A stretch of 64,000 nt of DNA from Raillietiella orientalis (taxonomy: Eukaryota), in assembly GCA_036172245.1 (NCBI GenBank), contig JAYWIR010000022.1, positions 2,170,001 through 2,234,000 of the forward strand, read 5' to 3'. The position numbers were made by a program, and so were the translations under genes. Shown here piece by piece: positions 22,401 through 62,900 of this stretch; the stretch's first letter is position 1; each line of letters opens with the position of its first letter. The notes under the pieces were generated by a model. The model searched no databases, was not told where the DNA came from, and saw nothing but the letters and a program-made list of their open reading frames with translations.

Positions 22401-22549
22401 GAGCCCCCCTGAGGGAGCGAGCGGTTCTTCAGCACACGGCGAGCCAAAACAAACCCGAAAAGGAAAAGCCGGAAGGAAAGCAGCAAAAACAGAAGAACCC
22501 GGAAGAATTTCCATCACCATCCAGTCCCTTTCCATCATGCCCTCTGACC

Positions 22550-23100
22550 CCTTTGGGATCGCCTCGCAACGATCCTAGGTGTCTCGGCGGGCAGCCCCGG
22601 GACGTTTGTGGACACCTCTTCGCAGGCGATGCCGCAGTGCCGCCACCAGGCTCGTCCCTCGCAGTCCTCGGCTGCCTCCGCGGGATAGCGGTGGCCTGGA
22701 ACGCCAGAACAAGAGGGCCGAAATGGCAGGGACGCCATCCACTGGCCGCTGATCTATCTGAGGACCTCCTCGAAATGGTCCACGTCGTAGAGGCACGGAA
22801 AGAAATTGCCGGCATCTTGAACAGGACGCAGAGGACGCCGGGCAGTGCACTGAGATCACTTCCTCGGTTCCTCTCCCCGTGTGAAAATTCCCCTCCCCTG
22901 TTCTGTGTGTGTGTGTATGTGTTTTTTTTTTGTTTTTGTTTCCCCTTCCCTTGCGCTGCCGGAGCGGATCTCGCCGGTTTGAGCTCCGCGCTCTTCAACA
23001 GGTTCGCCGCACGTTGTGGAACCACGCCACGCCGGTTCGACCGCGCCAATGGATTTTTACTGTTTTATGTGGCAAATGTCCCGGCATGACCAAGTGATAA
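22550..23100 (+). mobile_element. Short 3' fragment of the same LINE family
   Basis: RDVCGHLFAGDA...LGCLRGIAVAWNARTRG...KEIAGILNRTQR aligns with the 40.2, 56.8 and 60.2 kb copies. It ends in AAATGTCCCGGCATGACCAAGTGA (23074-23097). Confidence 0.68.
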
Positions 23101-27392: not shown

Positions 27393-27438
27393 CACATTGC
27401 TGATGTAGTCAACTGAAGTTGACTACATCAGCAATGTG
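27393..27438. repeat. Perfect inverted repeat, 22-bp arms, 2-nt spacer
   Basis: CACATTGCTGATGTAGTCAACT-GA-AGTTGACTACATCAGCAATGTG. Confidence 0.95.
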
Positions 27439-29712: not shown

Positions 29713-29895
29713 TCACTTATGATACTCTCTACCATTTGTTTCAAATTTAATGAAGTTAGTTGATAAACCATCCGTTGATGAGAAAGGATGTTAATATCTT
29801 GATTGTGTAGTGAGCTATGGACAACTGGTTGCCACATACCCAAATGATTTGATTGCAGGAGTTTTATGGAAAAGGATATAAAATACGTATTGTGA

Positions 29896-29906
29896 AATAA
29901 AATAAA
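29896..29906 (+). promoter_or_regulatory. Overlapping AATAAA polyadenylation signals of the TM2D1 3' UTR
   Basis: AATAAAATAAA about 185 nt after the stop codon. Confidence 0.55.
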
Positions 29907-30329
29907 GTGGCCTAAAAGGAAACAAATACTATGTATTGCTCTTTCATTGTATGCATATTCATGCATAAGTGATAAATATGTGTGTGTGTCATGCATCATA
30001 TTGTAAAAAGCATGCAGCCAAAAATAGCAATCTATTAGTGAAGGTGCACTCCTTACCTTAACATCTTTGTACAAAACACGGATATATAATAACAGTATGC
30101 ATAATAGTAATAAGATCAGATCATTACATATACATGAAAAAATGTGTGAGAGGATCCTTTTCTACGTGTTCTTTCATATAATGCTAATGCTGTTATCACC
30201 TCAGTTCTAACATGGGGATTCTTTAAGATATAAAAAAGGAATGTGAATATTGAAAAAAGCAAAACAGAGACTGATCTCGCTTTCCCTAATTTGGGTTATC
30301 TAAATTGGCCTGTCTTGAAGCACCGAGAT

Positions 30330-38739: not shown

Positions 38740-40600
38740 TGCGTCATCCGCTTGGCGAAGCTGCGAGCGCTATCTCGGGGGCGAGGCGCTCGACGGACGT
38801 TCGCAAGGGTCGGACAAGGGGAGAATGGGGTCAGGGAAGGGAAGGGGGAGGGGAAGAATCCACGACATTCAGGGACTTCTCACCCTCTCCCACCCGCTCC
38901 CTCTTGTCGATCCCCTGTGGGAGGGAGGGACCGTGGCCGGAGTTTTACCAGAGGGCGGCTCAGACGAAGGTTCTTTCACGGCGCCCGCGTTAGCGCCCCT
39001 CCGTGGGTTCTCCCAGGCGAGCGGAGCCCGCGGATCTTCTCCAGCCACCTAAAGTCGCTCCGGGTGAACCGCCCGACAACCAAGGATCAGGAGATCATTC
39101 CCGCTCGCAAGCCTCTCCCTGGAAAATTGACCGCTCTCGAGGCGGCGAAAGTCCTAACGATCTCGAAGAACACGCTTTCCGTCTGCGGCTCCTCGGCCTT
39201 CCCTCTTCGGGTCGCGGGGCCAACTTCCGTTATCGGCTGGCGAAGACGTCCCGCGAGATGGATTCCTCCTCAGTCGGGAAGGCGTTCCCGGATCGCAGTC
39301 TTCGCTCGATCCCGTCCCGTGGACGCATGCGGCCGAGAGGGCGCTCAAGAAGAGAGCCGCGTCCGACGCGGAAATGCGCCCACGGCCTTCCCTCACTCTC
39401 CGCAGAGGGAATCACAACGCGCGTCCTGACGGCAGCAGCACTTCTTGGGAGAGAGTGGTGGGGGCAGTCCACGCGAACGGCCAACCATTTCCTGCTCCGT
39501 GGATGGAACCACGAAGCAGTCCGGGAGAAAGTGCGCGCATGGCTCCGTTGAGCAGTGGGACGCAATACCCAAACACGAGGACACAATCACTTTCTGCGCA
39601 CAATCAGGAGGAGCAGCTCCGGATGCGCTCTGCCGGGGGGAGGTCTGGATTTCGCTCCATCTTGGAACCTCGAAAGAGCCGTTGCCCTTCTCGGGGAACG
39701 GGACGCCACCAGCTCGCGGCAACAACAGTAGGGTGGGCATCCGTTCCGCCAGGAGCCTTCGGGCCGAACGACAGCGAGATCGGCACCGTCAGCAGCAACC
39801 TTTCGAACATCCAGATGGTTGCACCACCTGCGTGCAGTCTTTGCGTGCGATTTCAGTACCGCTCGCAGCAGCGAGTGAAAGAGCACTTCCTCCTTCGTGG
39901 ACCACGGGCTCACTCCGTTCCACCCACAGGCCAGTGGAACAGCAACTGCTCTGGCGACCGACGCGCAACATCCGTCTCTGCTCCCTGCCTACAGAGGTTT
40001 CCAGACGGTAAAGCAGCCACCGTCCCTCCTCATCGCACGGCGACAAGCCGGCGACTTCCGGTCGACGGGAAGCGGGAACTGCTCGTTTTTGTCTTCCCTC
40101 GGAACAACCCTCTTTTCTTTGCGTCCTGTATGGTTAACTGGCCTTCCACTGGAGGAGCGCAACCTTCGAGGACAGTGCTCCGAGCATACCAATGGCGTTC
40201 CTTGGTGCACCGACAGACAATCCCAGGGACGTGACGAAACATCTCTTCGTGCTCGATGCCCTTTCTCCTGACACATCCCTGACAGCTCTTCGCTACCTAA
40301 GTGGGATTGTGGCTGCCTGGAGCTACTCGAGAGGAGGACGGCAAGATAGAAGCGTCATCTGCTTAGCCCTATGCTTCATGAGATCGGCAGCAACATGACC
40401 TCACTTGAGACATACTCAGAAAGAACTTGCCGGCATCCTGGAAAGGATGCAGAGGGTGCCCTCCAGCACCCGGTGAACCCTTCCCTAACCCTCTCAATGT
40501 TTTGTATATATCTTTTTGTTTCTTTTATTTTTGCTTGCTTCCTTCCCCCTCCGCTGCCTAGGCAAACCTCGCCAGCCTGCGTGCCCGGGTACTCGCATCC
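38740..40600 (+). mobile_element. Decayed LINE ORF2 (RT remnants, C-terminus) with partial 3' UTR
   Basis: Weak RT-like motifs ALDGRSQGSD and GGSDEGSFTAPAL. A clear family C-terminus DVTKHLFVLDAL...LSGIVAAWSYSRGG...LCFMRSAAT*PHLRHTQKELAGILERMQR (40225-40455) is followed by a U-rich tract and hairpin-1 sequence CCTCGCCAGCCTGCGTGCC (~40567-40585). Confidence 0.6.
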
Positions 40601-43600
40601 TGCTCGGAGCGGCCCGCGTCGTTGAGATTCAAAGGGGTGCTCCTTTCCATCGACTGCCACCAGGCGAGGGCAGCCCCAGCGATCAGGAAATGAAACACCC
40701 GCGGCGCGGACGTTCCCCGTTCGCGGCGCGGATGAGCGCCAGTGCGTGCACGCCCGGCCGAACTGCGCGCGCGCGCGCGGCGAGTGCGCACGGCGCTCCG
40801 ACATGCGGAGCTTCCACGTCTCTGAAATCAGGTAGGCTAGACCGCACCTGGATTGCTGGGATTTTTGTCGAGCATTGCACGAAAGCTCCCCTGCCGTTCG
40901 TGAGCTCGAGGACAGCACAGGAGCTCTAAACAGGAAGAATCCGGAAGCTCGGGGTTTTGCAGAAATGGAGTCGCACTTGTTTTCCAGAACATGCGAGGCT
41001 GGGCCGCATCGGAAGGGGCAACGCTGCCGCATCTGGCAGCGTTAGCAGCCACCACGACCCTGGAGACGCTCTCTTATCCAGGAGGGTTGTGACGCAACCT
41101 TGGAATCGGAGAGCCCATTTCCTCACCGATCTCCGGACGAAAGCTGAAGGGCTGCCGTTTCGGTGCCTTTCCGTCACTTCCGGTTCCTCTCTCAAAGAAG
41201 TCTTTGTTTGTCGAAGTCATGGAACTTGAGGAGCAGCGCCTCAGGGTGGCCCCTGCTGGCGGCCGGCAGCGTTTCCCTCGGCGTGCTGGCACCGCTGCTG
41301 TGGTGCTTCTCGGTTGTGGGACGGATGGTAGGCTCCTGTCGACCGGACCTGCTTTTTAAAGAGGGCCGTCCCGGTCCGTCTGGCGTTCCGGTACGTCGCA
41401 TCTCTCGCGGGAGATGCAGCAGCCTTGCTCCTGTCCGCGCGGTCTTCCGCTCGCTCTCATGCGCGCAACGGGATCGTCGTGAACTGGACTGCGGTCCGAA
41501 AAAGGGGGGAGCCGATCCAATCGGGAACGAGCACTCGAAGAGGCCCTCTTGTAGGAACCGAGCCGTCCCCGATGACACCGGCTAGCGTTCAGCGGATGGC
41601 ATCCTCCCCTCAGACGAGACCTCGAAGCGGAGAGGAAGCTCCCGTATGGAGACGCAGGAAGGGGCGCGTCCGTGCGTTGGTCTGAGCCTGCAGTCACCTT
41701 CAGGAGGTTCCGTCGCCACCGGCGTTGTGCCGCGGCCGATCGTGCCTTTCGCCCACCTCACCCTGAGGGGTTCGCGGATCCCTCTGTTCCTTCCTTCCTA
41801 TCCACGGTTTTCGGGACAACGGACCTTTCCCACGACACTTTTTTTTTATCTCCCTCGTTCTCCAGCTGCTGTTCCTGCTGTGCTCTCACCTTGAGGCATC
41901 AGAGGACCCAGCCGGATGTCCCTTGAAGGGGGGCAACGGACAGATGATGGCGCACGTCCCAGAGGTTCCCCCATGCAGCCCTCTGGGACGGCGACGTCCA
42001 GAAGACTTTGCGTATAGAGCATCCGTCTCCAAGCTCCGTTCCCCTTCACCAGTCAGCTGGAAACGCCCAAGGTCGTTGCTCTGTCAGTCGAGTTGCCCCA
42101 TCCAGTCCGCTTTTCGATCCCTCTGGAAGTCCTTTCCTACCTTTCCGTACTCCTTTTGGAGTCTCCTCCATGAGGCTCTTTAAAGGTGACAGAAGTGTCG
42201 ACCATCCTTCGCCGCGTCCGTGACCTACAGATTTTGGTCCAAGAGGCCCCATAAAGGAGGTGGATTTGTTTCTGCTTCCACATCCTCCAGGAGTGTCCTT
42301 CTCGACTTTCTAAACCTTCTGGAGGGGCAGCAGCGGCAGCCGGAAAGCCAAGATCACAGGCGGCGGCAGTAGAGGCGGCTGACAGTCGCCCTCGGAAACG
42401 GGTGCACAACGGAAACGACCTCGAAAAGCCTGAGGGTGCGGAGGGAGGCAGAGGGGAAGTTCCTCCTCCGCCCTTCGCTTCGCCACTTCACGTTCTGTGC
42501 CGAAGATGCCTCCCTCTGTCCCTCGTCGAGCGGGTCGTTTTTACCATCCGTCTCTAAGGAGACAAGGGCGCACGTTGACCCTGATCCTCCTCTGGAGCCA
42601 GAGTTCGCGAGACCAAAGGGAACCTTGTGCCACTCGATCCTCGGCTCCCGGCTTGAGGGGAAGGACAAGACTGAAAGAAGTGTGAGCCCCAGCTGCACGG
42701 GACAAGAACCTTCCGCCAGTGGACAGGACTGCATCTTCCCCGCTTGTCTTCCTTCCGGGAGAGAGATGCCAGGGTCGCCCAGTCTCCGTCCTCGTTATCC
42801 AAGAGGGCGCGGACAGGGGAGGAGTCCGGAAAGCGGAGAGAGGGATCGAACCTCGGGAGACGGACCGTTCGTTTCCAAGGGATACCGAGGGAAAGTACTC
42901 CGGACATCCCTCCTAGGAGGCGATCGATGATCCCTGCCCGAGGGAGCCGGCGTCGCGGCCGGCTGCTATCCCAGACAGGTCGGATCATCAGGAGAGAGCC
43001 GTGGGTCCATCCGCTCTCCAGAGGTGGTCCGACAGGATCGGTCTGGAGCGACGAGTCTTCCCGACCCTTCCTTCTGACCTCGAGGCGCCCGGGAGAAAAC
43101 GCCGCTCTTTCCGCCGCAGATCCTGCGTTTCCAAAGGGAGTGCGGCTTGCTACTCGTGTGGGCGACGGAAGGGTTGGCGGAGACAGGCATCGTCCAGAAA
43201 ATCCCCTGCAGAAGGCCTACTCTTCACTCATGGCTTCCCAGTCCTCACTGTGGTGCCCTCACTGTCCTTGGACGTCGCTGAGCCACCAATCTCGGCCCGG
43301 AGCGCTCCTCTGGACGCTTCCCGTGCATTCCAGCAGTTCCTCCTCCTCCATGCTGCTAGAAGACTACGCAGGGTCCAGGTCGCACCGAAAACCCTCCGAA
43401 CGGTCGATTTTCTGGAGAGGGTTTCGAACGAGGACTGCTCGGCGCTCCCATCAGAGAGGCAGGAAGTGTCTTCATCAGATGGAGAGCTACCAGAAGATGG
43501 GGTCATCTGAGGGCTTGGTTGGGAGGCAGTCCGGAAGGCCGATGCGTCGGTCGTGTCTGAGGGATGGGCACAGTGTCCTCACGGGGCGAGTTCCCCCGCT

Positions 43601-43849: not shown

Positions 43850-45485
43850 TTCGTTTAAGCTATTTCGGGGTTCCCCAACAATGGCGAGCATCGTAACAAT
43901 GCTCAAAAAGTTCGCTAGGGCTATTTCGGATGTCGTGAGCTGCCCCGAACGCAAAGCAAATTGCACTTCACGGGCAAATCATGCGAGGGAAGGAAAGGGT
44001 TACGGAGCCTCCCACAGGCACTCTAGGGATTTGGAGGATCCAATTGGGGTCTCATCTCGTCCACGGAGCATGGCTGCTTGGTAGGAGGGATCGTGGAGGA
44101 AAGGGTAACTCTTCAAGGAAAGCCAGTGGGGGTTCATTCCTTCGAGAGAGATGCGAGATCCAACGCGGAACAACGGCAGCCTCCAGGAGGTGTCGCTTTC
44201 TATGGCACCATGTCGGCAGGAAACGAAACTATCAAAGAAAAATTCCGTTCGATTTCGATCCCTGCCTCCCTCTAGCTCCGACATCCTACTAGGCAACCGA
44301 GCCCTTCCTGCACATTCCAAGTCAATGATAAACCGATGCCTGCATAAGGTAAGGAAGGAAAGCATCCTCGAATCCCGAGGCGCTCTGACACCAACTCCTC
44401 GGTCAAACTCTCTCCCAAACTTCCCGAGTTCGACGCTCCGTCTCGTCTCGGAACTACATTACGTTGCCGTGCTATTCCTGTTCATTAAACTACCATATGC
44501 CCTTCGGAGAAGCTTGAATTCACCGACATTAACAGATCTCGTGCACCATTCCCCAGGTCTTTCATGGAGTTCTATACGAAGGTTTGCATTCGAAGTCTCT
44601 CACGGACGAAGTTTCAAGTGACCGCACTTGCAATGTTCCAAAGCAGGGGAACCACTTTGGCCTTCCACCCCTTTTTGGACGAAGAAAACTTCTTTCACAC
44701 TACCTGCAATGTCGAACCTTCCCAGATGGAACCAATAGAAAAGTGTGTGGCACGTGCTGGCGATGATGACGCAGTCTAACGGTTTCGTCCGGAGCACTCA
44801 AGGATCCACCAAAGAGCCACGAAATCTTATAGCATTCCGGTTTCCATCGACGGCTACTTCATTTTTGGTGACCTGGCTCCCAGGAATATAGGAGACAGGC
44901 CTTACCTTTCAGACAGCTTTCCCACGATCTGCAAATAAGTCATCGGACCGTGTGGCTGCAGTCCCCACTTGTGGTACCAAGCATTTCAGGCTCGAATACC
45001 CATAAAGGATCTGTGTCTCTTCACGTGCGGCTCGACGTCGCCTGCAGCTTCCCTTTTGCCTTTGCGAGATCGTGGCGCCGAAAGAGTCCAGTCGAACGGT
45101 GAAATCATCTCAATTGTCTGCTCCTTCATGGGGAAGGCGACAAGATGGTCTCATCTCTGCCAACAAAAGGAGGAAGTTGCTTTAGAGGATGCTGAGAGCG
45201 TCAATAAGAGACTGGGATAGACCCTTCTCCCCAGCATATATTTTTATATATTTTTAAACTGAGCTTTTGTGTGTGTTTTTTGTTTTTGTTTATCCCTTCA
45301 CCCACTTCTCCCGTGCGGACCTCATCATGGGAGCTACTCACGAGAAGCAGTGCCTCGGAGGCATCTCCCTTCCCAGTGGTGATGTGAAAGCACTACGAAG
45401 AAAGATATTCTTATATTTTATAAGACTGTTTTTTTCTGTCGATATTTTTTTTTTACAATAAACGCCCCGGCGTGACCGAGTGAAA
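43850..45485 (+). mobile_element. Decayed L1/Tx1-like LINE, 3' part (RT thumb to 3' UTR)
   Basis: Motifs MLKKFARAIS, TLGIW and FLWHHVGRKR. The C-terminus SFMGKATRWSHLCQQKEEVA is homologous to FMRMATRWPHLKH (60.2 kb). It ends in AATAAACGCCCCGGCGTGACCGAGTG (45457-45482). Confidence 0.65.
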
Positions 45486-45499
45486 ATAAAGGATCAAAG

Positions 45500-47300
45500 A
45501 CAGAGAAATGGGTGCGCCGTGGATTTCGAGTCCCCACCGCAAGATGACGCTGGCTGGTCGATAGCTTCGGGTGCGGCACTGGGTGGAAACCGGATGCCCA
45601 CGTTGAATGGCCGGGATTGGTAGTGATACTCCAGGATCCTTCCAGGAATCAAGGAGCCGGTCCCCTTCAGAGTTACCCTCCAGTTGTGCAGATGGAGCCG
45701 TCCTCACCCCACCTCGAGGGGGAAGACCCTCCATCGAGTACCATGGAGCTGGTTGACTGATACCTTCCAGAGTATGAAGAAGCTCGATGTTCCCTTTGGG
45801 GAGAGCCCTTCAGAGAAATCTGGAAGCGTCCCTTCCGGGCTCTCTTCAGAGGAGGAAGGAACAGGAACCTCCGGAGGGATCCTCCCTTCCGGAGGATCCC
45901 TCCGGGGAAGAAATTCCAGGAGTGAGGATCCTTTCCAGGATCCCTTCGGTGAAGAAACGAGTTCCCCCTCCGGGGGTCCCTCCGGAGAGAATGAGGAAAC
46001 GGTTCCCTTCGAGGTTCCCTCCCAAGCGTGAGAAGAAAAGACCGCTTCCTCCCGAGCTTGGTGGATTCATAGGGTGGCCCTCCCGGGTACCCCCTAACTT
46101 GAAGAGTTGAAACGCCCCCTCGTGGATGGCTTGGACGATGTGGAAGAGCTTCACTAGCCGCCAGATGAACGATTCTTCAGTACTTAGCGATCTGCAGATC
46201 ACACACCTCTCCCTGCAAAGCATCGTGAACATCAGTTCTCCTTCGCAGTCGCTCCAGACAACTGTCTCCCGCATCTTCCTGCAGCCCCTCGGCACCTGTT
46301 GGGTGCAATAGAGTTCTTAGGTCTCCCGAGAACATGGACTTTCCCCTCCCTTCAAAACAACGAGTTGGAACGCGGATATGAGGATGAGTGTTTTTCACCC
46401 AGCACCATCTACCCACCGTTCGCGTCATCAGTTTGGCGACTTGTCGACAGTGTCCCCTCACTATCAGGATACGGTAGTCCTTTGTCACTCACAGACGAGG
46501 GGGGTTGCAGCTCATCCTGGTTGCAGGAAACGTTTCCATGAAGGGACGTCTCCTCGTCCATCATGTTCCAGGGCTCGCCCCCCCTCGACCCGCTGACAAG
46601 GCTCGCTGATTTCCAGACTCTCCACCCTCGGCCGTCTGCTTCACAAGTCCGTCGCTGGTACTCCACCGACCGCAAGTCCCTACCACCCTTCCCTGCCCCG
46701 CGTCCTTAAGTGCCCTCTTCAGCAGTTCGCACACTCTTCGGCGCACGGCTTGCCCTTGTCGCTGGCGCCCGAGCGGCTTCGACCTGCACGGAACCAGGCG
46801 AAAAGACCCCGCCAGCCGCTCCATCCTTTGGATGCAGCCCACCTGCCCCTGGAGAATTTCCTCCCTTTCCTCTCTCTCCAGTAGCCTTCACCCGGAGACC
46901 CCCCCCTTCCACCCTACCCCTCTCGGGGACAAAGGCCTCCGGTGCCCTTGGACAAAGGAGGGAGATGTTCCAGGTTCGCATCTTTCCGCTGCCCTCGAGC
47001 TCTTCCCGACCGCTCCCACACCGCGGTCGAGCACGAAGTCAGCATAACCGGGTCCAAGGCAGCAGGGCAGCAGTCACCGGACCACCCCTTCCACTCTCCG
47101 TCGTCGTGCCAACCTTGCCCGTAAAAAACAGGGTTCTGTTGCGAGTGGCAGCTGCTGAGCCCCTGCGTTTCAGGACTGTCCCAGGGAAAAACCCTCTCGC
47201 CAAGCCCTCCGACCCTGCAATGCTGCCCTCTTTGGCACTTCCCCTCTGACTCTCCCTCCCCATCCTTGCCTCGAGAAGGGCGCCGTCCTTGTCGGAGCTC
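45500..47300 (-). mobile_element. L1/Tx1-like ORF1 (gag-like) relic with zinc knuckles and S/P/E/G-rich tail
   Basis: QQVPRGCRK...CRERCVICRSLS (~46180-46305) is followed by SFSPEGPPEG...SSSEESPEGTLPDFSEG, which recurs at 21.9-22.4 kb and 49.05-49.56 kb. Confidence 0.55.
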
Positions 47301-49049: not shown

Positions 49050-49560
49050 GATCCCAAGGAACCTAGCGGGGGGCACCCCTAACCCGAAGGGGGAGAATGG
49101 CTCCTCCGCCTTTGCAACCGGAAGGGGGAACGCCGAAGGGAGCAGCCTCTTTCTTGTTCTCTCCGGAGAAGTTGTCTGAAGGGAGTCACTCCCCATTCCT
49201 TCTCCGGAGGGCACCCTCCAGGGATCCGCTCCCTATTTGCTCCTCTGGAGAGAGCCCACAAGGGGCACCTCCCAATTTCGCTGAAGGGTGTTAGCGGGAC
49301 ACTCTGGAGAGGCGCCCCTCCGAGGGAAGCATCGACCAGCTCCACGGTACGGGATGAGGGGTTATCTTCTGAGGGGAGGGGAGGCTCCCTTCTCACAACC
49401 GGAGGGAAACAACCTCTCGGTTCCTGGAAGAACCCCAGGAGGGTCATCTTCCACTCCCGGTCCATCGGTGGAGGCATCCAAGGGCTTGCGCCAGTGCCGC
49501 ACCCCGATAGGCCAACCAACGTCATCCTCTCAGGAGGACTCGGACTCCCCACGACGCACC
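49050..49560 (+). repeat. Inverted dispersed copy of the ORF1-tail repeat
   Basis: SFLFSPEK...SSGESPQGAPPNFAEG and the DNA blocks ACCAGCTCCA, TTCTCACAACC and CCAGTGCCGCACCC match the reverse complement of the 22 kb and/or 45.6-46 kb copies. Confidence 0.7.
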
Positions 49561-51559
49561 TCCCCATTACTCGGAGCCGACCCGTCCTTCCCCGGGAGGG
49601 ACTCGAACCCGCGATGCGCAGTGCCGTGCGCGGAGGAGACTGCAGCGGACTCTGTCCTCTTCGTACCGGTGGCCTTGAAGCCACCCGTTCAGGTCAGCTC
49701 CGGGTCCGTCCCGGTTCAGAAGCATCTCCGCGGTGCCCGACCTCCTAAGGCAGCTCGGGGGAGGCGCCTTCCGTGCCGCTTCTTGTCGCAGCCATCGGAA
49801 TACTAGGGAGCGCCCCACGAGGAGCCCAAGGTCGGCTCCTCAGCTGGACAGGGGGAAGGGAAGGAGGCGACCCCGTTTCAGCGAGTCCCGGGTTCTCCCT
49901 GACGCGTGGGGCGGAGGACCTCTATCGGGCCGGCCGATCTCGCCGAGAATGGCAGCAGTGGGGCCAGCGATCTGCTCCGCGTGGCCTCTGTGCCGCAGAC
50001 GCCCGGAGAAACCCAGAACTCTTCATCTCTCCAGCTCGGCCGCCTCCGGGCACCCGTGGACATCGGTCGGGAGAGCCGCCCGGAACGGAAGTCTTCTGGC
50101 AGGTGCCCACTGAAGGAGAGGATGCCTTCCGAGCAGGGACCATTCCGGACGGGGGGGACGACCCCTTTGAAGAAGATTGATCCCCTGGAAACGTTCCTCC
50201 TTCTCAACCCCATCCATTATAGAAGTTGGTCGTGTACTCCACGGAGAACGGGCGCCACACTAATGGGAAGACCGGCCGATCGATCAGAGTGCGTCTTCAT
50301 CTTCCGTCCGGAGCGGCAGGCGAGTTCATCCGTAGTGACCGTTGCCGGGGATGCATCGACCTCCCCGACAAAGGTCCACACCTCAGCTGTGGGCAGTCCC
50401 TTGGAGCTCTCCTGTCGCTTTCCCACCCAACCGTCTCTGGACTTTCCCGGGATCGTCCGCGTTGATTCAGCTTTTAGAGGAATGTGAGTCGTAGCCACGA
50501 CTTCCGCGGGTGCGACTCTCCCGAGGAGGGTGTTGGTCAAAGAGCCAAAGCTCAGCTCCTCAGCTGGACAGGGAAGAGGGATGGGAAGGAGGCGACCGCG
50601 TTCCAGCGAGTCGCAGGTATTCCCTGAGACACTCGCGCACTTCTCTGGACTCCCCCCTTTTTCCACGCTGCCCATCGCATGAAAATCCTGGCCACCAGGA
50701 TGAAGACGGCGCGCCAGTCGGTCGGGGCAAGCGAGGAGATGGGGGCGTCCAGTAGGGGGAGCTTGGGGCGATGCCTTAGTCTTTTGGCACCCCCGAGCAG
50801 GGAGCTTCGCATGCCGGCCGCGCTGCGCTCCGTGACTACCCGGACAACCCTGCTAGCCTGCCGACCCCGTGACGGGGAGGGAGTCATGCACACCTTCCTG
50901 CCTTCGCCAAGGACGAGAGAAGAAAGGGGGAGAGGAGAGGGTTGCGTTCAACATGGCGTCGCAGAGGGAACCCGCGGTTCCGCGGGAACGGCGACTCGCG
51001 GAGGTGGTGCCTCTTCGATTGCCGCCTCACAGTTCGGTGAGAAACCGGGAGAGGATGCTCGCGATGCTCGCCTCATAATGGCGGTTCCAGAGGTTCGCTC
51101 CGCGAGGAAGCCTCTGCCAGACCCCTTCCGGGGAAGAGACGAAACCGTCAGGGCGAGGGATGCTGCGCGTTTCTTCTTCCGTTCTTCCTCGCTCGAAGCG
51201 GCCCAGAACCAAGAAACAGGGAGGTCGGAAAGCTACCAGCGACCTAGTTGGCCACCCGAGAGGACCAACTCTCACCCTGAAGCTCTTTTTTTCCCCAAGC
51301 CGCCCCCACCCTACCCATGTCGCCCCCAAGGACACTTCCCATGAGAGTGCGTAGGTCTCATCGCCCTCCGCATGGACGAAGCGACCACTCTCTTCTGAAG
51401 TGGGGCCCGAAGATGTTGACCTCTCCGCTGGCCCATCGCCGGGAATAGTACCGCGAGCCTCGGCTGCCTACCGTTGGCGCAACGACCTGCGCCGCTTGGT
51501 GAGCGAAGAGGACGGCCCTTGACAATGCTTCAGATGATCGGCTCGCAGGCGGCCACCCA

Positions 51560-53400: not shown

Positions 53401-56400
53401 AAACAAAAAAGAAAAAGAAAAAAAAAGCCTTCCGGGTTTTTTCGTCTGGAACTGTTTCGTCTGGCACCTCCTCGAGCTCTCTTCCCAAAGCGAAGAAGCT
53501 GCTGACAGACTCCTGGGGGAACTTCTTTGTCTCGTCTCGGACACCTCCACTTTTCCCGCGCGGAAAGAGAGCGGAAGCTTTTGGAAAAGTTCTACCCTGA
53601 ACCCACAGCCCGCCCGTCCCGCGGCATCCGGTTGCGAAGTTTACCGGATGCCACCCCCCCCCCCCCAGCGCTGCACCGGGGGAGCGCGCCAGGCGCGCAC
53701 CAAGCACGGAACGGTTAGCGCCTTCTCCTAGAGGGGGTGGCTTAAGATACCCTCCTCGATGAGACGCTTCAATCTCACCCCTTCCTACCTGGCTCCCCGC
53801 CGTTAACCGTGTTGATTGCCGTTCTCCCCTCACGCGTGCCTCGTCTTCGGGGGGACTGGGGAGGGGGAAAGAGGGAAAGAAAAAGAAAAGATCTCGGGCT
53901 AAGGGTCTTTCACTCGAACGGGAGAAAACTCGGGAGTGGCTTAAAAGAGGAGGAGGAGCATTCCCGAAAGATTGAGAAGGGACCAGGAATTGATTTTCGG
54001 TTCGAGGCTCGGGGGCCGCGAGCAGCGCTCGAAAGCGAAACCGGTGCGCGCGCCAACGCCGCCCATTCCCCGTTAGCGATGAGGCCGGCGTAGGCCCTCC
54101 GGGAGGGGAACCTGGCGGCGCGCATGCCAGGGAAGACCGCGGAGCGTCGATTTCGACGCGGCCCACGGCCCTTCGGGGGATGGCCCCCCTCGGGGCACAT
54201 TTCGTCCCCCTGCACGTGGGACACCTTCTAAGGGGCGAGCGCACGGGGCAGCGGGAAAATCCCTTCCGCACGTGCGTCCGCAGCGTCCCCCAGTCAGGCC
54301 CAGTCCAGGGCACCCGCGCAGCCCGCCGCAGATCGATGCAGAGTGCGCTGCCAGGTTCGCGCCTGGCCATCCTCGTTCCCCTTCCCGGGCACCGCAGGCC
54401 ACAGGGAAACCGAGCGGCGGGATTCGCGCACTTCCCGGCCGTGCTGTTTGGGCTCGTCTTTACGCGACCATCGTCCGAGCAACCGAAAAGAGAGCGCTGG
54501 TTTCTCGGTCTTCTCCTTCCAGGGAAAGCACAGCTGCTGGAAACTTCCATGAAATAAGATCAGCTCGATTCCTTGATTCCCTGCTCCGGTCCATCACATG
54601 GCAGGCAGGAGGATGTCCATTCCCTAGCGCTCGTATCATTAAGACCAAGGCTCAGCCGGGCGGAGGAGGGTGGCGGAGCATTGCCCCATTGCAATCCCTG
54701 CATCACCGGGGCAAAAAATGATCCTCTCTTGCCAGTAGGCGCAGGAAAATGCTTCGAACAGGAACAGAGAGATTTTTTTTCCCCCCCCCCCCCCCCCCCC
54801 CCGCGTGTGCAGAGGAAGCCCACGGAGAGGGGAGCAAAGTCTCAGCTTTCGCTCTCTGAGGATGGCTTTTTTTAAAGTGGGTTCCCTCGAAAATCTGCAG
54901 CTGGATGCGACGATTCTCAGCGCTCGGTACGAAAACATGCGTTGCACCTGATGATCTGCCCCACATCCGATGCTTTTCGAACCTCGAAGCTCATGTTTGC
55001 TCTTCTGAACGTTACTTTGCAAAAGAAGAAGGTGACGATGAAAGAAAGAAAGAAAGAAAGAAAGAAGAAAAAAAAACAATTCCGTACCCAAACATTCCTT
55101 ATTCAACGCAGCAATTATGCATTCCGAATAATCGTTATCTCCTCATAGTGTGACGTCAGCAACCACGAGTGCGTCATTAAGCCACCCTGGGAGATCTAGA
55201 ACACGTAGAACTTTGAAATCTTGGGGCCCCAATCGCTCAAGAATCGCAGCGTCTTCCTCCACGCCCAAGCACCTTGTGAGGTTCGACTTCTCTTGGCAGG
55301 GAAGCGTTTTCGTGTTCCTGTCAGGAAACGTCAGGTCGGAAGTGAAGGTTCCGCGAATGTGGCTCGCAGTGCAAGAAGAGCTCTTCAGCGGCCATTACTC
55401 GCTGATAAGCTGAGATGACCCCGAGCAAGCTGATTCTGGGCCTCGGATCACGGAACCGATCAGAAAAATCGCCGCAGACCGCGATAATTCCGTGGAAAGA
55501 GAGGGGGGGGGGCAAGGGGGGGAGGGGAGGGGAAGCGCGTCTTTGCGTCCGATCTGCCACGGGCGAAATTTTCGGTTGGCGTGAACCGCGAAGAACCTTC
55601 TCCCGGTGAGGGCGCCGAAAATCTCCTTTCCGTTGAGTCGTTCGGAGCGAAACGCGGGCATCGAGGGGCCCGCTCCTGCGAAGGGCACGCGGAAAGAAGG
55701 CCCTCTCTTCTTGCCTCCTCTCTCTCCCCCCCATTTCCAAACCAAAAGTCCCTCCTCCTGCTTGTCTCCCGAGCCCCGCGCGAAACCGTGACACCGGCTG
55801 GGATGGCTGCTGAACGATGACTCGAGAGTGCTCCAGATGTACTTCCCTCCGACTTCCAGCTCCGTTCGTCCCCTCCACGGAGATTTTTTTTGTTGGCTCT
55901 GTACCGTTCAATCTCCGTACTCGATCTGGCTGAAGAATTCCCTGTTCCAAATCCTCACGTTTCTTCAAGGAGGCCGTAAGCTCTCTCGTAATCAAGATCG
56001 GCCCAGAGTACATTAAAGCGATTACATTGCGAGAGTATGTTTTACTGGGAAGTTTGCAGGATCCCGGAACACTAAGGAACAACAAACAAACAAAATTATT
56101 CCACAGCATCGTCTCCTTTTTTCTTTTCTTTCTTTTTTTTTTTTTGGCACGCGCACAAGCTGATGAATTTATCTGCCCAATAATTGGCAAATTTAGGCGC
56201 AGCTCGGTTTGAATAAGAGCAGCAGCACCGTTTGCTAAGGGGAGCAGAAAATTCGGCTGCTCTTAATCGGATGCAGATTATGCGATCAGGTTCTTCGATA
56301 GGAGCTAATAAATCTCGCAAGGATGATTAGCTGCAGCTTTGCATTTCCGGGAGCTCCAGAGATGATCTGCGAAAGTCTTCGCAGGCATCCCGTCGCAGAG

Positions 56401-56479
56401 GCTCGGACGCGTCCGGCCGGCGAGACCAACGGCCCCCTCCTTCCGCTTCCCCCCACCGGAACACGAGCCCGCTGTTGAT

Positions 56480-57250
56480 TTCCACCCTGGTGCGCCGGAG
56501 TGTTTATTTCAAGAACGAACATATTACAAGAACTGTGTGGTTGGACCAGTGGTATCCAACCACGCACAATTTAATGGAGACCTGCCGCGTCACCGGTTCG
56601 CAGACCGGCGCGGTCCACCACGGCAGCAGAGGGGAGGGGACAAACAAATCGAAAAAGAGAAACAAAAAATAAATATGTTTTAGCAGGTGCGGCAGGGATC
56701 ACTGACTGCTGGTGGCGGTCCCGTCCATCCTCTGTAGGATGTCGTCAGCGTCTTGCTGGATATTCCTTTCCATGCGGGACCATCGCGTTGCTATCCTGAT
56801 GAAAAGGAAGGCGAAGTGGATGGCATCCCTGTCTCTGGGTCCTCCCGTTGCTTTGCTCCAGGCTGCGACGATCCCGCGCAGTCAGCACAGGGCTGCCAGC
56901 AAGGCCGCTGGCCGAAGGACATCGCGAACGAAGAGGGGTTTTAAAGCATCCCTGGAGTTGCCTTTGGGAGTTCCCAGGGCCCCAACAAAGCGTTCCCAGA
57001 GGGGACGGAGGGCAACACAGTCCAATGGCAGGTGGGGGAAGGATTCACGTTCCCCGCACCTGGCACAGTTGGGGTTCACACACACCTCGCGTCCAGTGAT
57101 GACGGCGGGCGTTGCACGGGAGACCCCGGTGCAACAGAAGAAGCGCCGGCTGCCGCTATATCAGGGGGAGGGTGCGGGTGTCCTTGAGCACCGGGGAACC
57201 CGCTGCTGAGGAGCGCTCTAAGTAGATCTCCCCCACGACAATAATAGGAT
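56480..57250 (-). mobile_element. 3' fragment of the same LINE family (zf-RVT, ORF2 C-terminus, 3' UTR)
   Basis: NPNCARCGERESFPHLPLDCVALRPLWERFVGALGTPKGNSRDALKPLFVRDVL aligns closely with the 60.1-60.6 kb copy. The 3' UTR has the same hairpins and an AATAAA (TTTATT at 56503-56508). Confidence 0.82.
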
Positions 57251-58139
57251 GCACGCAGGCAGCCAATCCTCCCGCAGCAACCCGCTCAGATCGGGTCCGC
57301 GGTTCTCTGGGGTGCGGAGGGGGGCTTCACTCCCCTCTCCTCCTTGCCATCCTCCTGCAGCACTGCGTGCCGAGTTTCGAGAGGTGGGTCAGACGCGCAG
57401 CGGGGTCAGCAGCGGTCCGCGGAAAGCCCTTCTGCTTCGCGGTACGTCCAGCTAAAGGAGGTTGAACCTAGGGAGGAAGGAAGAGGGGAAGGGGGCCAAT
57501 CGCGGTGGTAGGAATCGCATGTGGAATGCTGCGGCCGCTGCTGCCGCCTTTCGGCTCCGAAAAATGCGTGGGCGCGTCCTGGGCCGCGCGGAGATACGCC
57601 GCCGAGGCACCGTGCGGCCGATTTCACATGCGGTATTGCGTCTTCGTGCAGCCACTCCAGGGGGAGGGGGAGGAGAGAACGGCAGCGCATTCCTTCAAGT
57701 TTTTTTCTTTTGATTCTTCCTGATTCAAATTACTTCGACAGTGGGTAAAATCCAGCTGTCAGACAGATGAGAGTGATCTTTATAGGAATGCTGCGATCAG
57801 CGGAGCATACGTGGTCAGAGAAGGAAGTAGGTCCTCAAAAATACATAAATAAATACTTCCAGAAAATGAAAAAAAGGAATGATTTGATTAATACGGAATG
57901 CGAACGTGTGTGAGACAGGCTTTTCGTACGAGAACAAGATGGGGGAGTTCGTGGCACGCCGTCGAGTGGAAAGCTTCGCGCCGAAGTGGCGCCAGGGCAC
58001 GCACGTTTCCAGTAGCGAAGAGGGTCACGGACGACTCCTTGGGAGACTGGATTTGGCTACCCCCTGAGGCGTCTGTGATCACTTCTGGTGGCTTATCCCT
58101 GGATCCCCTGCCCCCCCCCCAAAAAAAAAACTGCAACTC

Positions 58140-58440
58140 CTAGCGGCAGTAGGCGGTAGAGCCCTGGGTTGCCACTCTGGAAGTGCGCCAAGAGGAACTT
58201 CGACCACTGCGGAGACTACCATGCAAGCCACTGGGAGATATCCTGCAGGACTGGACGCAGCAATCCCGGGTGGCCGTCATTCCCCTTGCCGAATCACCGT
58301 CTGCTCTCAGGACAAGTGATGACAGCTGCCAGTGATGACGGCGGGGAGGGAGTTGTCCTGCAAAATGAGTTGAGCAAATCCTCGACGGCTGCAAGACGAG
58401 CGCGTTGGTGGACAGCGCCACTCTTCGTTTCCAGGCGAAG
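58140..58440 (-). mobile_element. Small internal fragment of the same LINE family (just before zf-RVT)
   Basis: Shares CCAGTGATGACGGC (minus strand: AVITG) with ~57093 and ~60569. Confidence 0.4.
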
Positions 58441-58469
58441 GGACTCCTTCGGTCGAGTGACCTGCTCGG

Positions 58470-59700
58470 TGTATCACCTGGTCACTCCGGGACATTTATT
58501 ACAAAAATAATAAACATACATGCGTAGGGCCGATGGCCCTACATTGTCAGAAAATGCTCGGAACCTGCCGAGTCACCGGCACGCAGGCCGGCGAGGTTCG
58601 GCTCGTCAGCGGGAGGGAGGGGGAGGGGGACAAAAGAAAATAAAAACAAAACACCTGTTCGGTGTGCCCCACGAAGAACTCGCGATTCCTTCCCTGTGTG
58701 TGCGGACATCCCCGTGTTCCCGTTCCGTTGGAAACGGAACGTTCTGCTGTTTCTGCACTGGGGGGATGCCAGTGCAACCAGCACAGGCACCCGGTTTCCG
58801 AAGAGCTGCCATCCCGAAATCCATTGATGGAGTCGTTCACGCACTTCTCATGTCGGACCGCAGTGCCCTGGAGGACACGTGGCAGAGACCAACCTCGGCG
58901 CTCCTCCACCTGGAGGACACCGACAAGGACTTTCTGAGCGGCGCTCTTTCACGCGTACGAAGACGGGAGCCGCGATCGCAATGACCTGTTGCTCCTCCGC
59001 ACCACCGTCGTCGCTGCCCTCCCCGTGGCGGAGTCTCGTTCGCAGCAGTGAGGGGCGGCCACCCGGATGGCGGCCACCCGAATGGCAGCCACCTCGATGA
59101 GGACGGCCGCATGGTGACCTCATATTCGGGGAAGGGAAGAAGCAGGAGAGATGCGCGACGCCGGTCTGAGACGGTCCGAAGGTAGGGGTCCGCTGTTTCT
59201 GCAGAGGAAGAGGAAAGATGTCCTGCCATAAGGAAGAGATCGCGCCGCCAAAGCGGTCCTGGGGCTGGGTGCACCCGGGAGACGGGATCCGAGGTGTTCC
59301 TCTCCAGGAAGAGGGCCGCGCGAGGATCGCGGTAGAACGCGGAGGTCGCCTCTGGGAAGGATCGTGAGACAACTGGCGCAGAGAGCACGCTCTTCGCGGG
59401 AACAAGCTCGCGAGGCTGAATCTCGTGGACCGGGACGCGGCACTCGGATCCGGAATCCGGCATCGTCCACGGAACACGACCAGGAGGCTGGCGGGAAGCA
59501 CACCTGCGCGGACGGGAAGGCGAGGTTACGCAGGAAGACACCTTCTGCGTCCTCTGCAGCCACCCACCGTCTCCTCCCAGGGGCCGAAAAGCAAGGAGCG
59601 GAAGCACAGACGGTTGTCTTCTGCGGCATCTCCATGTTCGCTCCTCTCAGAGGTCGCGGAGATCGGCATCCCCTGACCTAGGAGCGAACTACTCCTCCTC
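58470..59700 (-). mobile_element. LINE relic ending in the family 3' UTR module
   Basis: 58472-58660 reproduces the 3' UTR architecture: hairpin 1 at 58561-58599, hairpin 2 at 58524-58542, then AATAAATGTCCCGGAGTGACCAGG. The upstream extent is poorly defined. Confidence 0.6.
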
Positions 59701-59964
59701 AGCTCAGGGATGCTTGGACGCCAGCAGCCGGTACCCCCGCACGAGAGCGTCGCTGACGCCGCGGTCTCGCCTGCTGCCGATGAGGGAGCGCGTGCAAGAG
59801 CTTTACACACGCGATGGGGCTTCGGCTGCCAGGAGACCGTCCCATCGCTAGCTGATGCCTTCCGCTGGCCGGCAGGACGATGCTGCGGTTTCGTCTTCCC
59901 TCCTTTGGAGGGGAAGGCAGCCTGGCCCTCTCGGTTCTTCCCCTCTGGATCCCGTGTGACCCGA

Positions 59965-62900
59965 TAGCTTATCCGGGTGGACCGGGGAATTTATGTAATG
60001 TAAAAATAAACATTTACAAAGATTGTGGTTGGACCGGTAGTACAACCACGTCCATCCAACGGAAGCCTACCGGTTCGCAGACCAGTGAGGTCCTCCACGG
60101 TAGCAGAGGGGAGGCGGAAACAAAAAGAAAACAAAAATAAAAACAAGTAAATAAACTTTGGAGAGGAAGGTATCCCGTCCTTCTGGAGAGGTCTTCTGCA
60201 TCTTTGCGTGGATGCCGACAAGCTGTTGCTGTATACAGTGCTTCAGGTGGGGCCATCTCGTTGCCATCCTCATGAATCGGACGGCAAAGTGGACATTGTG
60301 CCCTCCTCTTGCGTCGCTTCAGGTAGCGACGATCTCGCGGCTAGCGAGATCTGCTCCAGGCAGGGCAGCTAGCGAGGCTGCCGGACGAAGGGCATCGCGT
60401 ACGAAGACGGGTCTAACAGCGTCCCTGGAGTTGCCGCCGGGGGTTCCTAGGGTCGCGGCAAGGCGCTCCCAAAGGGGACGGAGCGCAACTCAATCCACAA
60501 GCAGGTGAGGGAGGGATTCCTGCTCTCCGCACCTGGAACAGTTCGGGTCCACAGCCCTCCCTCTGTGTCCAGTGATGACGGCAGGCGTTGCACGGGAGAC
60601 CCCAGTTCAGCAGCAGCAGCGCCGACTTTAGTGGGAGGTTGCAGAGTCGGTGAGCTTGCTCGTCTTCTGCTCACCCGGTCCTTTCTCCCTTCCGGAGATG
60701 GTCACAGTAACCTCCCATTTCGCCGCGATGCTGCTGCCCAGATGTTCCCTCAGGGAGGTTCGTGTGGCCCGATGGAAGTGCTTCTGCTGGTTCCTCGAGA
60801 TAACCTCGGCATCGCCGCGGCACGCCCGCCTCCCGCGCGCGTGCGCAGCTTCTATTCCGCTCGAGCCTGCCTATCGGATGGTCACGTAGGAGTGCGCGCA
60901 CGCCGCCGCGAACGCCTCCCGCGGAAACGTCGCTGCGCAGAAGTCGTCGCGGAACGCGGGCAACGGGGTCTCCGCGTCCGTATCAGTCCCGGAAACAACC
61001 ACGTGACTTTGTTTTGGAAACCGGAGACTCCGAGTCCACTGCGATACCGCTCCAGCGGAAGGGTAGGCTTCGAGATCCGTCAGCGGAGGCGTATCTCCCG
61101 CGTATCCCAGGGTCGAATTTCTTGCCTATTCGAGACTCCAGCAGCTCCCGTGCTCTTCATGCCAGCTCGAACCGAAGCCTTCATGCGTCCAGCGAACAGC
61201 GGGAAGCCAAGATTCACCCAACCAATGAGGCATCGCGTATTCAGTTGTTGGGTCGCGACGTTTCCATGGGAGGTGCACGGCGACCTCAGCCGGTTCCATG
61301 GGCCGACGACCCTGCCCACGAGGAAAAGGCGCAGTCTTCCCGTAGATGGATGTTTTTCTTTTCCTGTCTCCCTCTCTCTTCCTCCTCCGGGTCCCTTGCT
61401 TGCGCCTAGTTTCCTGGTAAGCTTGCCGGTCCGCGCGACGGGAGCAACGGGGTGGGGGGGGAGCTGCGTTCCGTTTCACTCTGTAACGGCATCTGGATGT
61501 GGGAGAGGAGGTCACGACCCATCCGGGACACGAACTTATTTGTTGAGGGCAGCAGGCTGGAAGGGACGGCTCCATCCAAGCGGCGGCACGGGGAAGTCCG
61601 ATGCAAAGATGGCGCTTCATTGTTGCCAGTCGCCAATCGCCTGCCGGAGTGCACGCATGCACATATTTTCCAAACGCTTGAAAACAGACGGCCACCCCGC
61701 ACCCCCTAAAAAAAAGAAGTCTTCTTCTCTGATTCTGTCGTTTGCTCGTGCGGATGCAGGCACAGCCGAGAGAGGTTCTGCGTCATTCCAATGAAATGTG
61801 GGAGCTCGTGGCATACTCTGCCGGCTGAAGTGACTGGGCGGGAGTCGCGGTAGGAATTGATCCGAGCACTGCTGCAAGATGCAAGCCGCAGGTGCCAGAT
61901 GCCTCACCAACCCTTTGATTTATCCGTTGTGAAACGCCTCTGCCAGAGAAAAAAACTCCCCTTAAAATTCTGCATGGTGTGTGTGCCCTCCCGTTGATTC
62001 CATGTCTCCTGTTGATTCCACATCCCCAGTGCGGAAAGAGCTGTTTTTTGAGATGCCGCTTCGCTCTTCATCACTCAGCCGTCGCACCAACACTTCCTGC
62101 GCCGCCCCACATCTCGCATCCGCTCATCTCGGTGCAAAATCGAGTCTTTACGGTTTTAACCCTTCAGGTTTCTCGGGTCCCAATAACTGGGTGTGAGAAC
62201 TTCGAGATGGAACGAAACTTCCCCCATGTGAGGAAAGCACTGCAGCTGAAGGAGCTCTTCCTCGCAAGGGACTGGATTGATGAGCTTGCGGATTTACGGA
62301 TAACATCGGGCAACCTCAGTTTTCCCTCCACAGGATCCCAAACATGTGATGGTCTCCCTAGTCTTGCAGCTGAACGATAACACTGGTTCCGTCAAAATAC
62401 CAACCAAAGCTTCAGAAACAGCGAGCAGACCAAACATGTAATGGTAATTCTTACTGGCAATCAACCGGTAGTCTAGCAGTTAGCAGCTCCAAGTGATAGC
62501 TTCTTTTCTTCTTCTTCTTTTGCTTTCTTTCTGTCTGTCTGTCTCTGTAGTTTCCTTTTTTTCTCCCCCCTTCGACTGCTGATAACCACTTGAGATGCGA
62601 GAATAAGTGGGTAAGAAATTCCTGCGAAGACTCCGGTTGGGGTCGAGCTTTCCAAAGAACAAGTTAATCGAGGAGGGCTTGGAATCAAGCTTGTTAAAGA
62701 TTCAGCAAGTCTTCCCGATCATCCCAGAATCACGTGGGAGGGCTCTGAGGCTGCTCTCAATGAGATCGTGTTCGTGAACCTGGTTTTCCGATCGAATCTC
62801 GGTTCAAGGTGAATCGAAAAATCTGCATGCTGAAGAAGCGCTCTCCTCGCTGCACCGCGGAACACAAAGACGGACAACCGTAGACAGCTGGAGGTTATGC

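What the first reader, a model, noticed from the sequence alone, without database searches (positions are those of the whole stretch)
56480..60120. Conserved multi-hairpin 3' terminal RNA module with compensatory changes in an L1/Tx1-like LINE family
Seen: diverged copies share the order ORF2 end, U-rich tract, CCCCTC, hairpin 1, hairpin 2, U-rich tract, AATAAA, hairpin 3. Hairpin 1 keeps the loop CUGCG(A/U) while its closing pair co-varies: CCGGU/ACCGG (56593-56608), CCGGC/GCCGG (58576-58591), ACUGGU/ACCGGU (60069-60086). Hairpin 2 changes sequence but keeps pairing: GUGGUUGGA/UCCAACCAC (56537-56563), GUAGGGCC/GGCCCUAC (58524-58542), GUGGUUG/CAACCAC (60025-60049), and GUGGUG/CACUAC near 45376-45396. 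Known: 'stringent' LINEs such as L2/CR1 and R2 use 3' stem-loops for RT recognition, whereas mammalian L1 relies on poly(A). Inference: this lineage may use an uncatalogued structured cis element for RNP assembly or priming.
Basis: partly seen in the sequence, partly recalled or inferred. Interest (0 to 1): 0.7.

Follow-up and report, generated by a model that had tools for sequence, protein, structure and literature searches.

The report
Structured tail of tail-less LINE retrotransposons
A large group of L1-like jumping genes ends in a conserved set of RNA hairpins instead of the usual poly(A) tail, most likely the handle for their own copying enzyme, and sister families each land at their own fixed spot inside other jumping genes.

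Summary
The hairpins are real (minus strand). They lie in the 3' UTR of an L1/Tx1-like LINE superfamily (APE-RT-CCHC ORF2). Across sister families, hairpin 1 changes its closing pair (U-A, C-G, G-C). Hairpin 2 keeps 80 of 80 pairs in 10 family patterns. None of 147 copies has poly(A); ends lie 24-26 nt after AATAAA, where target duplications begin. No Rfam match. A pseudoknot stays unproven, and no SINE sharing the tail was found.

Families insert at fixed sites in sister LINEs or a tRNA-SINE. Two young families with 94-98% identical endonucleases but different 3' ends land at different motifs, hinting that the 3' end guides targeting; recombination could mimic this.

The scan noted these hairpins, the missing poly(A) and the targeting many times on other contigs. 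Verdict: new variant of stringent LINE tails.

The parts
56479..57198 (-). Copy A: 5'-truncated LINE (ORF2 tail with CCHC knuckle, stop codon 56699-56701, 3' UTR)
   Evidence: tblastn to ORF2 aa 1095-1198, E 8e-16
56582..56626 (-). Copy A outer helix P1 (5' strand 56621-56626, 3' strand 56582-56587) enclosing hairpin 1
56592..56609 (-). Copy A hairpin 1, 6 bp with hexaloop
56537..56563 (-). Copy A hairpin 2
56479..56508 (-). Copy A terminal cassette: AATAAA (56503-56508), hairpin 3 (about 56485-56500), 4 terminal bases, no poly(A)
56468..56478 (-). Copy A 3' target-site duplication (10 of 11 match with 57199-57209)
57199..57209 (-). Copy A 5' target-site duplication
58473..58652 (-). Copy B: 180-nt insert, 3' UTR only (core 58556-58615, hairpin 1 58575-58592, hairpin 2 58524-58542, AATAAA 58495-58500, hairpin 3 58477-58491)
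58460..58472 (-). Copy B 3' target-site duplication (12 of 13 match with 58653-58665)
58653..58665 (-). Copy B 5' target-site duplication
58042..59078 (+). Host: decayed ORF2 tail of sister LINE family G, split by copy B at the family-B target site
59966..60760 (-). Copy C: 5'-truncated LINE (hairpin 1 60069-60086, hairpin 2 60025-60049; 3' strand of P1 deleted; CATAAA 59990-59995)
59953..59965 (-). Copy C 3' target-site duplication (12 of 13 match with 60761-60773)
60761..60773 (-). Copy C 5' target-site duplication
45012..45485 (+). Copy F: related family with hairpin 2 (about 45369-45400), AATAAA 45457-45462 and hairpin 3, no hairpin 1; 10-nt duplications at 45002-45011 and 45486-45495
44945..46195 (+). 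Host tRNA-headed SINE split by copy F just after its B-box-like head (ends approximate)
22528..23100 (+). Copy D: decayed LINE tail (core 22950-23010) inserted at the 3' part of a SINE (about 21749-22516)
40219..40605 (+). Copy E: B-like ORF2 tail and core 40548-40605; hairpins 2 and 3 missing

Best explanation
This is the 3' cis-signal of a poly(A)-less, L1/Tx1-like LINE superfamily. Shown: the 3' UTR keeps an outer helix P1 around hexaloop hairpin 1, a hairpin 2 whose sequence turns over but stays paired, and a near-invariant AATAAA plus hairpin 3; copies end 4-5 bases after hairpin 3, where the target-site duplication begins; families insert by target-primed reverse transcription (5' truncation, duplications of about 8-17 nt), several at a fixed site in sister LINEs or a SINE. 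Inferred: selection acts on the master elements' RNA; ORF2p binds the structured tail (stringent recognition) and starts cDNA at a fixed point just 3' of hairpin 3, so any poly(A) on the transcript is skipped. Hairpin 3 is the likeliest universal handle; P1, hairpin 1 and hairpin 2 are lineage-specific additions.
For: ORF2 is APE+RVT_1+zf-RVT, ORF1 has a zinc knuckle; best solved relative human L1 ORF2p, E 1.9e-44, against R2 at 2.6e-15. No A run over 8 in the 40 nt after the end in 147 of 147 copies scored (3 of 150 dropped for a poor terminal match). Duplications scoring 8 or more in A 17 of 28, B 7 of 23, F 8 of 27, C 10 of 30, controls 0, 0, 1, 1. On 46 real copies 87% of 828 cells pair, with 48 double-change cells against 18 in shuffles, 0 of 500. 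Family-level RNAalifold returns P1+hairpin 1 at -19.7 against -11.1 (sd 2.6), 1 of 300 column shuffles. Identity between 7 families: P1 1.00, hairpin 1 0.81, terminal 27 nt 0.83, rest of core 0.58 against 0.53 at 891 fourfold-site comparisons and 0.74 at second codon positions. Hairpin 2: 80 of 80 cells paired, shuffle mean 61, 0 of 5000. AATAAA-to-end spacing 20-21 nt in 13 of 13 families. CpG decay only 1.0-1.6 times non-CpG. Precedent: stringent tails with compensated stems (PMC3472496; PMC5135761).
Against: No binding or transposition data. RNAalifold on the 46 decayed copies gives no structure at all. The number of pairs with a double change (8) is not above shuffles (177 of 500), and few independent events underlie the counts. 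The 6-bp P1 core is invariant, so its pairing rests on three outer or sub-lineage double changes. Single-sequence folds prefer other structures in C, young A and D (hairpin 1 probability 0.00-0.18); window copies A, F and D fold no better than shuffles (z -1.9, -1.3, +0.7). Hairpin 2 was picked by a search for the best stem and 3 of 13 families did not pass. No SINE carrying the tail was found, the usual evidence for stringent recognition. Duplications were not detected automatically in D (0 of 24, controls 2).
Confidence: 0.7

Rival explanations
1. The RNA end also chooses the landing site. Cleavage 24-29 nt after AATAAA leaves 4-5 bases of the parent's own flank on the RNA; these pair with the nicked strand, so each family re-targets the sequence its master sits in. 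This adds to the best explanation rather than replacing it.
For: Young families J1 and J2 have endonuclease domains 94-98% identical (5 J1 and 4 J2 copies) and differ in the last 1.2 kb (79-94%), yet land at different motifs: J1 CAACC 7 and CGACC 2 of 9, J2 four variants of (A/C)GYRG in 6 of 6 (one copy misfiled as J1 set aside). One J1 copy with another endonuclease (85% identity) is at the J1 site, and a J3 tail on a 5' half with the same divergence profile lands at a J2-type motif. In dispersed family A the genomic copy of the duplication starts with TCG in 8 of 13 (background 0.015). Precedent for primer pairing: R2 (PMC11601368), SART1 and R1 (PMC7265360).
Against: The 3' end and its flank are linked, so recombination after insertion plus array amplification gives the same mosaic; J1 elements (0.95-0.97) and flanks (0.92-0.96) are about equally alike. 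The C-terminal protein differs too. Bias of consensus bases to the 3' copy in A is 7 against 1, p 0.07. Endonuclease swaps change targets in SART1/TRAS1 (PMC7265360).
Confidence: 0.25
2. The structures serve RNA processing, stability or ORF1p packaging (for example control of the poly(A) signal), and ORF2p does not read them.
For: AATAAA is kept at fixed spacing and can pair with the U-rich tract before it in several families. No partner SINE shares the tail.
Against: The AATAAA stem test was inconclusive (fractions 0.02-0.09 in 6 of 13 families, and the script scored family A wrongly as 0). It does not explain why cDNA starts at a fixed base without poly(A).
Confidence: 0.2
3. The core is a pseudoknot like that of avian R2: four bases of the large bulge pair with the bases right after P1.
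For: 83% of cells paired on 46 copies; one family-level double change, G-C in A against A-U in B and H, with G-U in D; not a CpG change.
Against: Only 4 bp; broken in C, young A and I; a rival 4-bp helix scores as well in the exhaustive scan; no linker between P1 and the helix, which looks sterically tight (inference).
Confidence: 0.25
4. Artefact: GC-rich palindromes plus CpG decay or gene conversion mimic covariation.
For: Copies are about 10-17% decayed at C/G positions; consensus folding of raw copies fails.
Against: Changes are fixed at family level and include transversions (closing pair G-C in family I; hairpin 2); CpG excess is small; conservation exceeds coding controls.
Confidence: 0.04

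Closest known systems
Stringent L1-clade tails: monocot LINE1-1_ZM group with ZmSINE2/3; Chlamydomonas L1-1_CR with SINEX-3_CR (PMC3472496, first third of text read; PMC3747384, passages)
   Same: L1-clade ORF2 with a conserved 3' hairpin showing compensatory changes
   Different: Those have one hairpin of about 45-80 nt and partner SINEs, and the algal pair ends in poly(A); here three to four helices over about 150 nt, no poly(A), no partner SINE found
Tx1-clade target-specific LINEs: Tx1 in Tx1D, Tx1-Mar in Mariner-N4_AMi, Keno, Kibi, Koshi (PMC4494074, passages)
   Same: APE-type LINEs that insert at preferred positions, in fixed orientation, inside other repeats
   Different: Targets here are sister LINE ORFs and a tRNA-SINE, a different site per family; Tx1 membership unresolved; no structured tail seen in the passages read
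Zepp and ZeppL of green algae (PMC8226300, passages)
   Same: L1-type elements nesting into existing copies and forming arrays
   Different: Here many families cross-target each other at codon-precise sites in both orientations, and old copies are dispersed; centromere role not tested
Avian and turtle R2 3' UTR pseudoknot-hinge-stem (PMC11601368, passages)
   Same: Multi-helix 3' end, a few unpaired bases, then bases that can pair with the primer
   Different: R2 has a restriction-like endonuclease and an rDNA target; the pseudoknot here is unproven
SART1Bm and R1Bm (PMC7265360, passages)
   Same: APE LINEs with required 3' stem-loops; short target-like RNA may anneal to the nick
   Different: SART1 copies carry poly(A) and its endonuclease sets the target

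Membership tests
L1 group (L1/Tx1) LINE | ORF2 with APE endonuclease, RT and C-terminal CCHC; ORF1 with zinc knuckle | tested here: met
   Pfam on intact copies elsewhere in the genome; window copies A and C match ORF2 aa 1079-1198
L1 group (L1/Tx1) LINE | RT closest to L1-type enzymes | tested here: met
   PDB: L1 ORF2p E 1.9e-44, R2 2.6e-15; database relatives only 22-32% identical
L1 group (L1/Tx1) LINE | 5' truncation and target-site duplications | tested here: met
L1 group (L1/Tx1) LINE | poly(A) tail (usual, not universal: PMC3472496 table lists L1 families with none) | tested here: not met
   0 of 147 copies with an A run over 8
Tx1 clade | RT groups with Tx1 on a tree | tested here: inconclusive
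   Five own ORF2s form a long branch (2.6) with weak placement; no curated Tx1 reference in the set
Tx1 clade | Target preference, over 20% of flanks in one repeat (criterion in PMC4494074) | tested here: met
   I 12 of 14, young A 3 of 3, H 5 of 7, F 13 of 30; B 14 of 30; D 21 of 30. Not met for dispersed A (0 of 30 share a flank) or C (one duplicated pair). B, D and F queries included some flank, which can inflate these fractions
Stringent-type LINE tail | Conserved 3' stem-loop with compensatory changes | tested here: met
Stringent-type LINE tail | Partner SINE sharing the 3' tail | tested here: not met
   The one candidate (family D) is a LINE inserted into the SINE at variable lengths; only one SINE family was examined
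Stringent-type LINE tail | 3' structure required for retrotransposition | not testable with these tools
   needs an assay
Zepp-like | Nested insertion into existing copies | tested here: met
Zepp-like | Phylogenetic affinity and one cluster per chromosome | not tested
   no Zepp sequence in hand; many old copies are dispersed
R2-type 3' pseudoknot | Pseudoknot supported by covariation | tested here: inconclusive
Any Rfam family (ribozymes, cis-elements) | Match at gathering score | tested here: not met
   0 in the window; best E 0.31 in 56400-60300, off the module

The most novel reading that the evidence does not exclude
The structured tail is also a built-in guide: fixed cleavage after AATAAA leaves a few bases of the parent's insertion site on the RNA, hairpin 3 presents them to the nicked DNA, and the RNA end rather than the endonuclease decides where each family lands. 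That would explain how sister families with nearly the same endonuclease came to hit different codons of each other's genes, and would make an APE-type LINE retargetable through its RNA.
Probability: 0.25. Interest if true: 0.8.

Novelty: new variant of a known kind. Interest (0 to 1): 0.5.

Why it matters
How L1-group enzymes pick their template without poly(A), and what sets target choice in APE-type LINEs, are open questions with practical weight for RNA-templated gene insertion. This genome offers intact, young elements, more than ten sister tails with natural compensatory changes, and a natural swap of endonuclease against 3' end, so both questions become testable with simple constructs. 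If only the tail recognition holds, it is a well-supported, unusually elaborate example of a known strategy.

Tried and rejected
Rfam: nothing at gathering score, nothing on the module by E-value. RNAalifold on raw copies: no structure. Shared sequence downstream of B, D and F first looked like a longer tail or 3' transduction; empty sites and 5' junctions show it is target. Family D first looked like a SINE carrying the LINE tail; rejected because the LINE part varies from 466 to 1465 nt. CpG decay as the source of covariation: rejected. AATAAA held in a stem: inconclusive, test partly faulty. First fourfold-site control was misaligned and was replaced. Tandem same-site pairs (L239, L243, L246) were considered as evidence of read-through RNA; a repeated insertion with a tripled duplication explains them as well. 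Tree placement L1 versus Tx1: unresolved. ARAGORN found no tRNA in 7 SINE loci; the SINE head is called tRNA-like from A- and B-box resemblance (own knowledge). Expression: no RNA holder listed. 45 long window ORFs had no Pfam hit. Resemblance of the hexaloop to pseudo-triloop protein-binding loops (iron-responsive element, hepadnavirus epsilon) is recalled, not tested. Further young arrays could not be sampled, so family numbers stay at 2-41 copies. Paper searches: (LINEs targeting other retrotransposons, 4 of 5 terms) returned 0 and one paper, which is weak evidence of absence. No supplements were read; those of PMC3472496 and PMC4494074 may hold comparable tails or targets.
Full report
Setting. 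The window is G000:C22:2170001-2234000 in a 210-Mb assembly. It is mostly GC-rich repeat with one AT-rich island that holds a TM2-domain exon.

Observation. All quoted stems are present. Copies A, B and C read on the minus strand. Own-genome searches gave 1293, 883, 837, 293 and 142 first-look candidates for the A, B, C, F and D tails, of which 40 were scored and 30 fetched each; these are not copy numbers.

What the element is. Intact relatives have ORF1 with a zinc knuckle and a 1212-aa ORF2 with APE, RT and zf-RVT. The closest solved protein is human L1 ORF2p. Database relatives are 22-32% identical, and five own ORF2s form one long branch whose place between L1 and Tx1 is unresolved (123 of 125 rows kept). 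Copies have variable 5' ends and a sharp 3' end. None of 147 scored copies has an A run over 8 in the next 40 nt. Duplications begin 4-5 bases after the terminal hairpin; the automatic search found them in 42 of 132 copies with a mapped 5' end against 4 controls, and in none of 24 D copies, whose 5' ends were confounded by shared flank (seen by eye).

Structure. From all loci in hand, 255 distinct terminal motifs fell into 13 clusters of two or more plus 28 singletons; I split these into 13 family patterns. Because dead copies decay without selection, the test is between families. Hairpin 1: closing pair U-A in A, C, young A and D, C-G in B and H, G-C in I, and a second double change in H. On 46 real copies chosen as closest to their family pattern, 91% of hairpin-1 cells pair. 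Outer helix P1: six pairs identical in 7 of 7 families, with double changes at the two outer pairs and, in 4 family-I copies, at one core pair. RNAalifold on the seven patterns returns P1 plus hairpin 1, beaten by 1 of 300 column shuffles, but returns nothing on raw copies, and single-sequence folds favour other pairings in C, young A and D. A model-fitted alignment of 29 matches, partly overlapping the training set, gives similar counts. Hairpin 2: 80 of 80 cells paired in the 10 of 13 families where the anchored search found it, with double changes at 5 of 8 pairs; the selection favours pairing, the shuffle (mean 61) addresses covariation. Hairpin 3 and AATAAA are almost invariant, 20-21 nt from AATAAA to the end motif in 13 of 13 families, with 374 exact genome matches and 0 controls. 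P1 (1.00), hairpin 1 (0.81) and the last 27 nt (0.83) are more conserved between families than fourfold sites (0.53) or second codon positions (0.74) of the adjacent ORF2; pairwise comparisons are not independent. CpG decay is 1.0-1.6 times the non-CpG rate, too little to create these changes. A 4-bp pseudoknot has one double change but fails in three of seven families and is matched by a rival helix: unproven. P1 and the CUGCG loop are absent from F, J and K, so only the terminal cassette and, mostly, hairpin 2 are general.

Targets. Sequence shared downstream of many copies is the insertion site. B sits antisense at one site in the ORF2 tail of family G: 14 of 30 B hits share the flank, 23 of 30 hits to the flank are empty sites, and 7 of 14 show the upstream half of G at insert lengths 179-1390 nt, so these are separate events. 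F sits just after the head of a roughly 790-nt tRNA-like SINE (13 of 30; upstream half seen in 5 of 15, one doubtful). D sits in the 3' part of that SINE (21 of 30, inserts 466-1465 nt), H antisense within it (5 of 7). Family I is antisense at one codon of ORF2 in 12 of 14 copies with flanks 59-95% alike; three young A copies are antisense at the AFD codons of the RT. Dispersed A and C copies share no flank, apart from one duplicated C pair, but A duplications start with TCG in 8 of 13, the same bases as the young-A target. Queries for B, D and F included some flank, so their on-target fractions may be inflated.

Mechanism. Shown: structure conserved between families, fixed end, no poly(A), TPRT hallmarks, family-specific sites. 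Inferred (0.7): ORF2p grips the tail and starts cDNA just after hairpin 3, as stringent LINEs do (PMC3472496; PMC3747384; PMC5135761). More speculative (0.25): the bases left after cleavage pair with the nick and select the site, as primer pairing helps R2 and R1-clade elements (PMC11601368; PMC7265360). The best hint is that J1 and J2 share their endonuclease (94-98%) but not their 3' third or their landing motif, while one J1 copy with another endonuclease keeps the J1 site. Recombination within arrays, array amplification, or the differing C-terminal protein could give the same picture, and I could not see both junctions of these copies.

Comparison. It works like a stringent LINE tail on an element that behaves like target-specific Tx1 (PMC4494074) and nests like Zepp (PMC8226300). 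It meets the L1-group definition; Tx1 membership is open; no partner SINE was found. Rfam has no model. Papers were seen as passages, except PMC3472496 (first third of the text); the others in the listings were seen as listings only.

Earlier scan notes. The hairpins, the missing poly(A), SINE and sister targeting, a 'guild' of cross-targeting families and read-through guidance were all noted on other contigs, none near this window. They are unchecked and count as leads.

Verdict. Real, selected RNA structure; new variant of a known kind; interest 0.5, rising to 0.8 if the RNA end directs targeting.

Noticed in passing
window 24500-30500: AT-rich island (GC 31-41%) inside GC-rich repeats, with a TM2-domain exon at 29425-29709 (+; Pfam E 8e-18); host genes may sit in AT-rich islands here.
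   Followed up: partly
window 21749-22516, 44945-46195, about 49181-49646 (-): Three copies of a tRNA-headed SINE of about 790-860 nt (2552 first-look candidates) that is hit by families F, H and D at three different fixed sites.
   Followed up: yes
L163, L167, L169, L181, L182; D loci L097, L102, L103, L104, L110, L115, L121: Many SINE copies stop right at the family-D target motif and run into unique flank, as if the SINE RNA were primed there by D-type machinery.
   Followed up: no
L237-L256 (contigs C4, C9, C33, C44, C46, C53, C54, C57, C72, C81, C89, C113, C136): Young, partly intact LINE copies (open frames to 1272 aa) in nested arrays, often on small contigs or near contig ends; could be centromeric or subtelomeric as with Zepp.
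   Followed up: partly
L237:1308, L249:7242, L218:1390: Young family A inserts antisense into the conserved AFD codons of the RT of sister elements, which would inactivate them.
   Followed up: partly
L239:6565-6726, L243:6303, L246:5694-6178: Tandem double insertions of one family at one site, separated by 8-12 nt of target.
   Followed up: partly
window 26580-26667, 27393-27438, 31701-31732, 8997-9035: Near-perfect DNA palindromes of 32-90 nt.
   Followed up: no
window 49822-49902 and 50542-50627: Direct repeat of about 85 nt, 83% identical, 720 nt apart.
   Followed up: no
L019, L030, L066, L088, L167, L170: Further families keep the hairpin-1 loop with another stem pair (A-U for G-C) but lack P1; single copies only.
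   Followed up: partly
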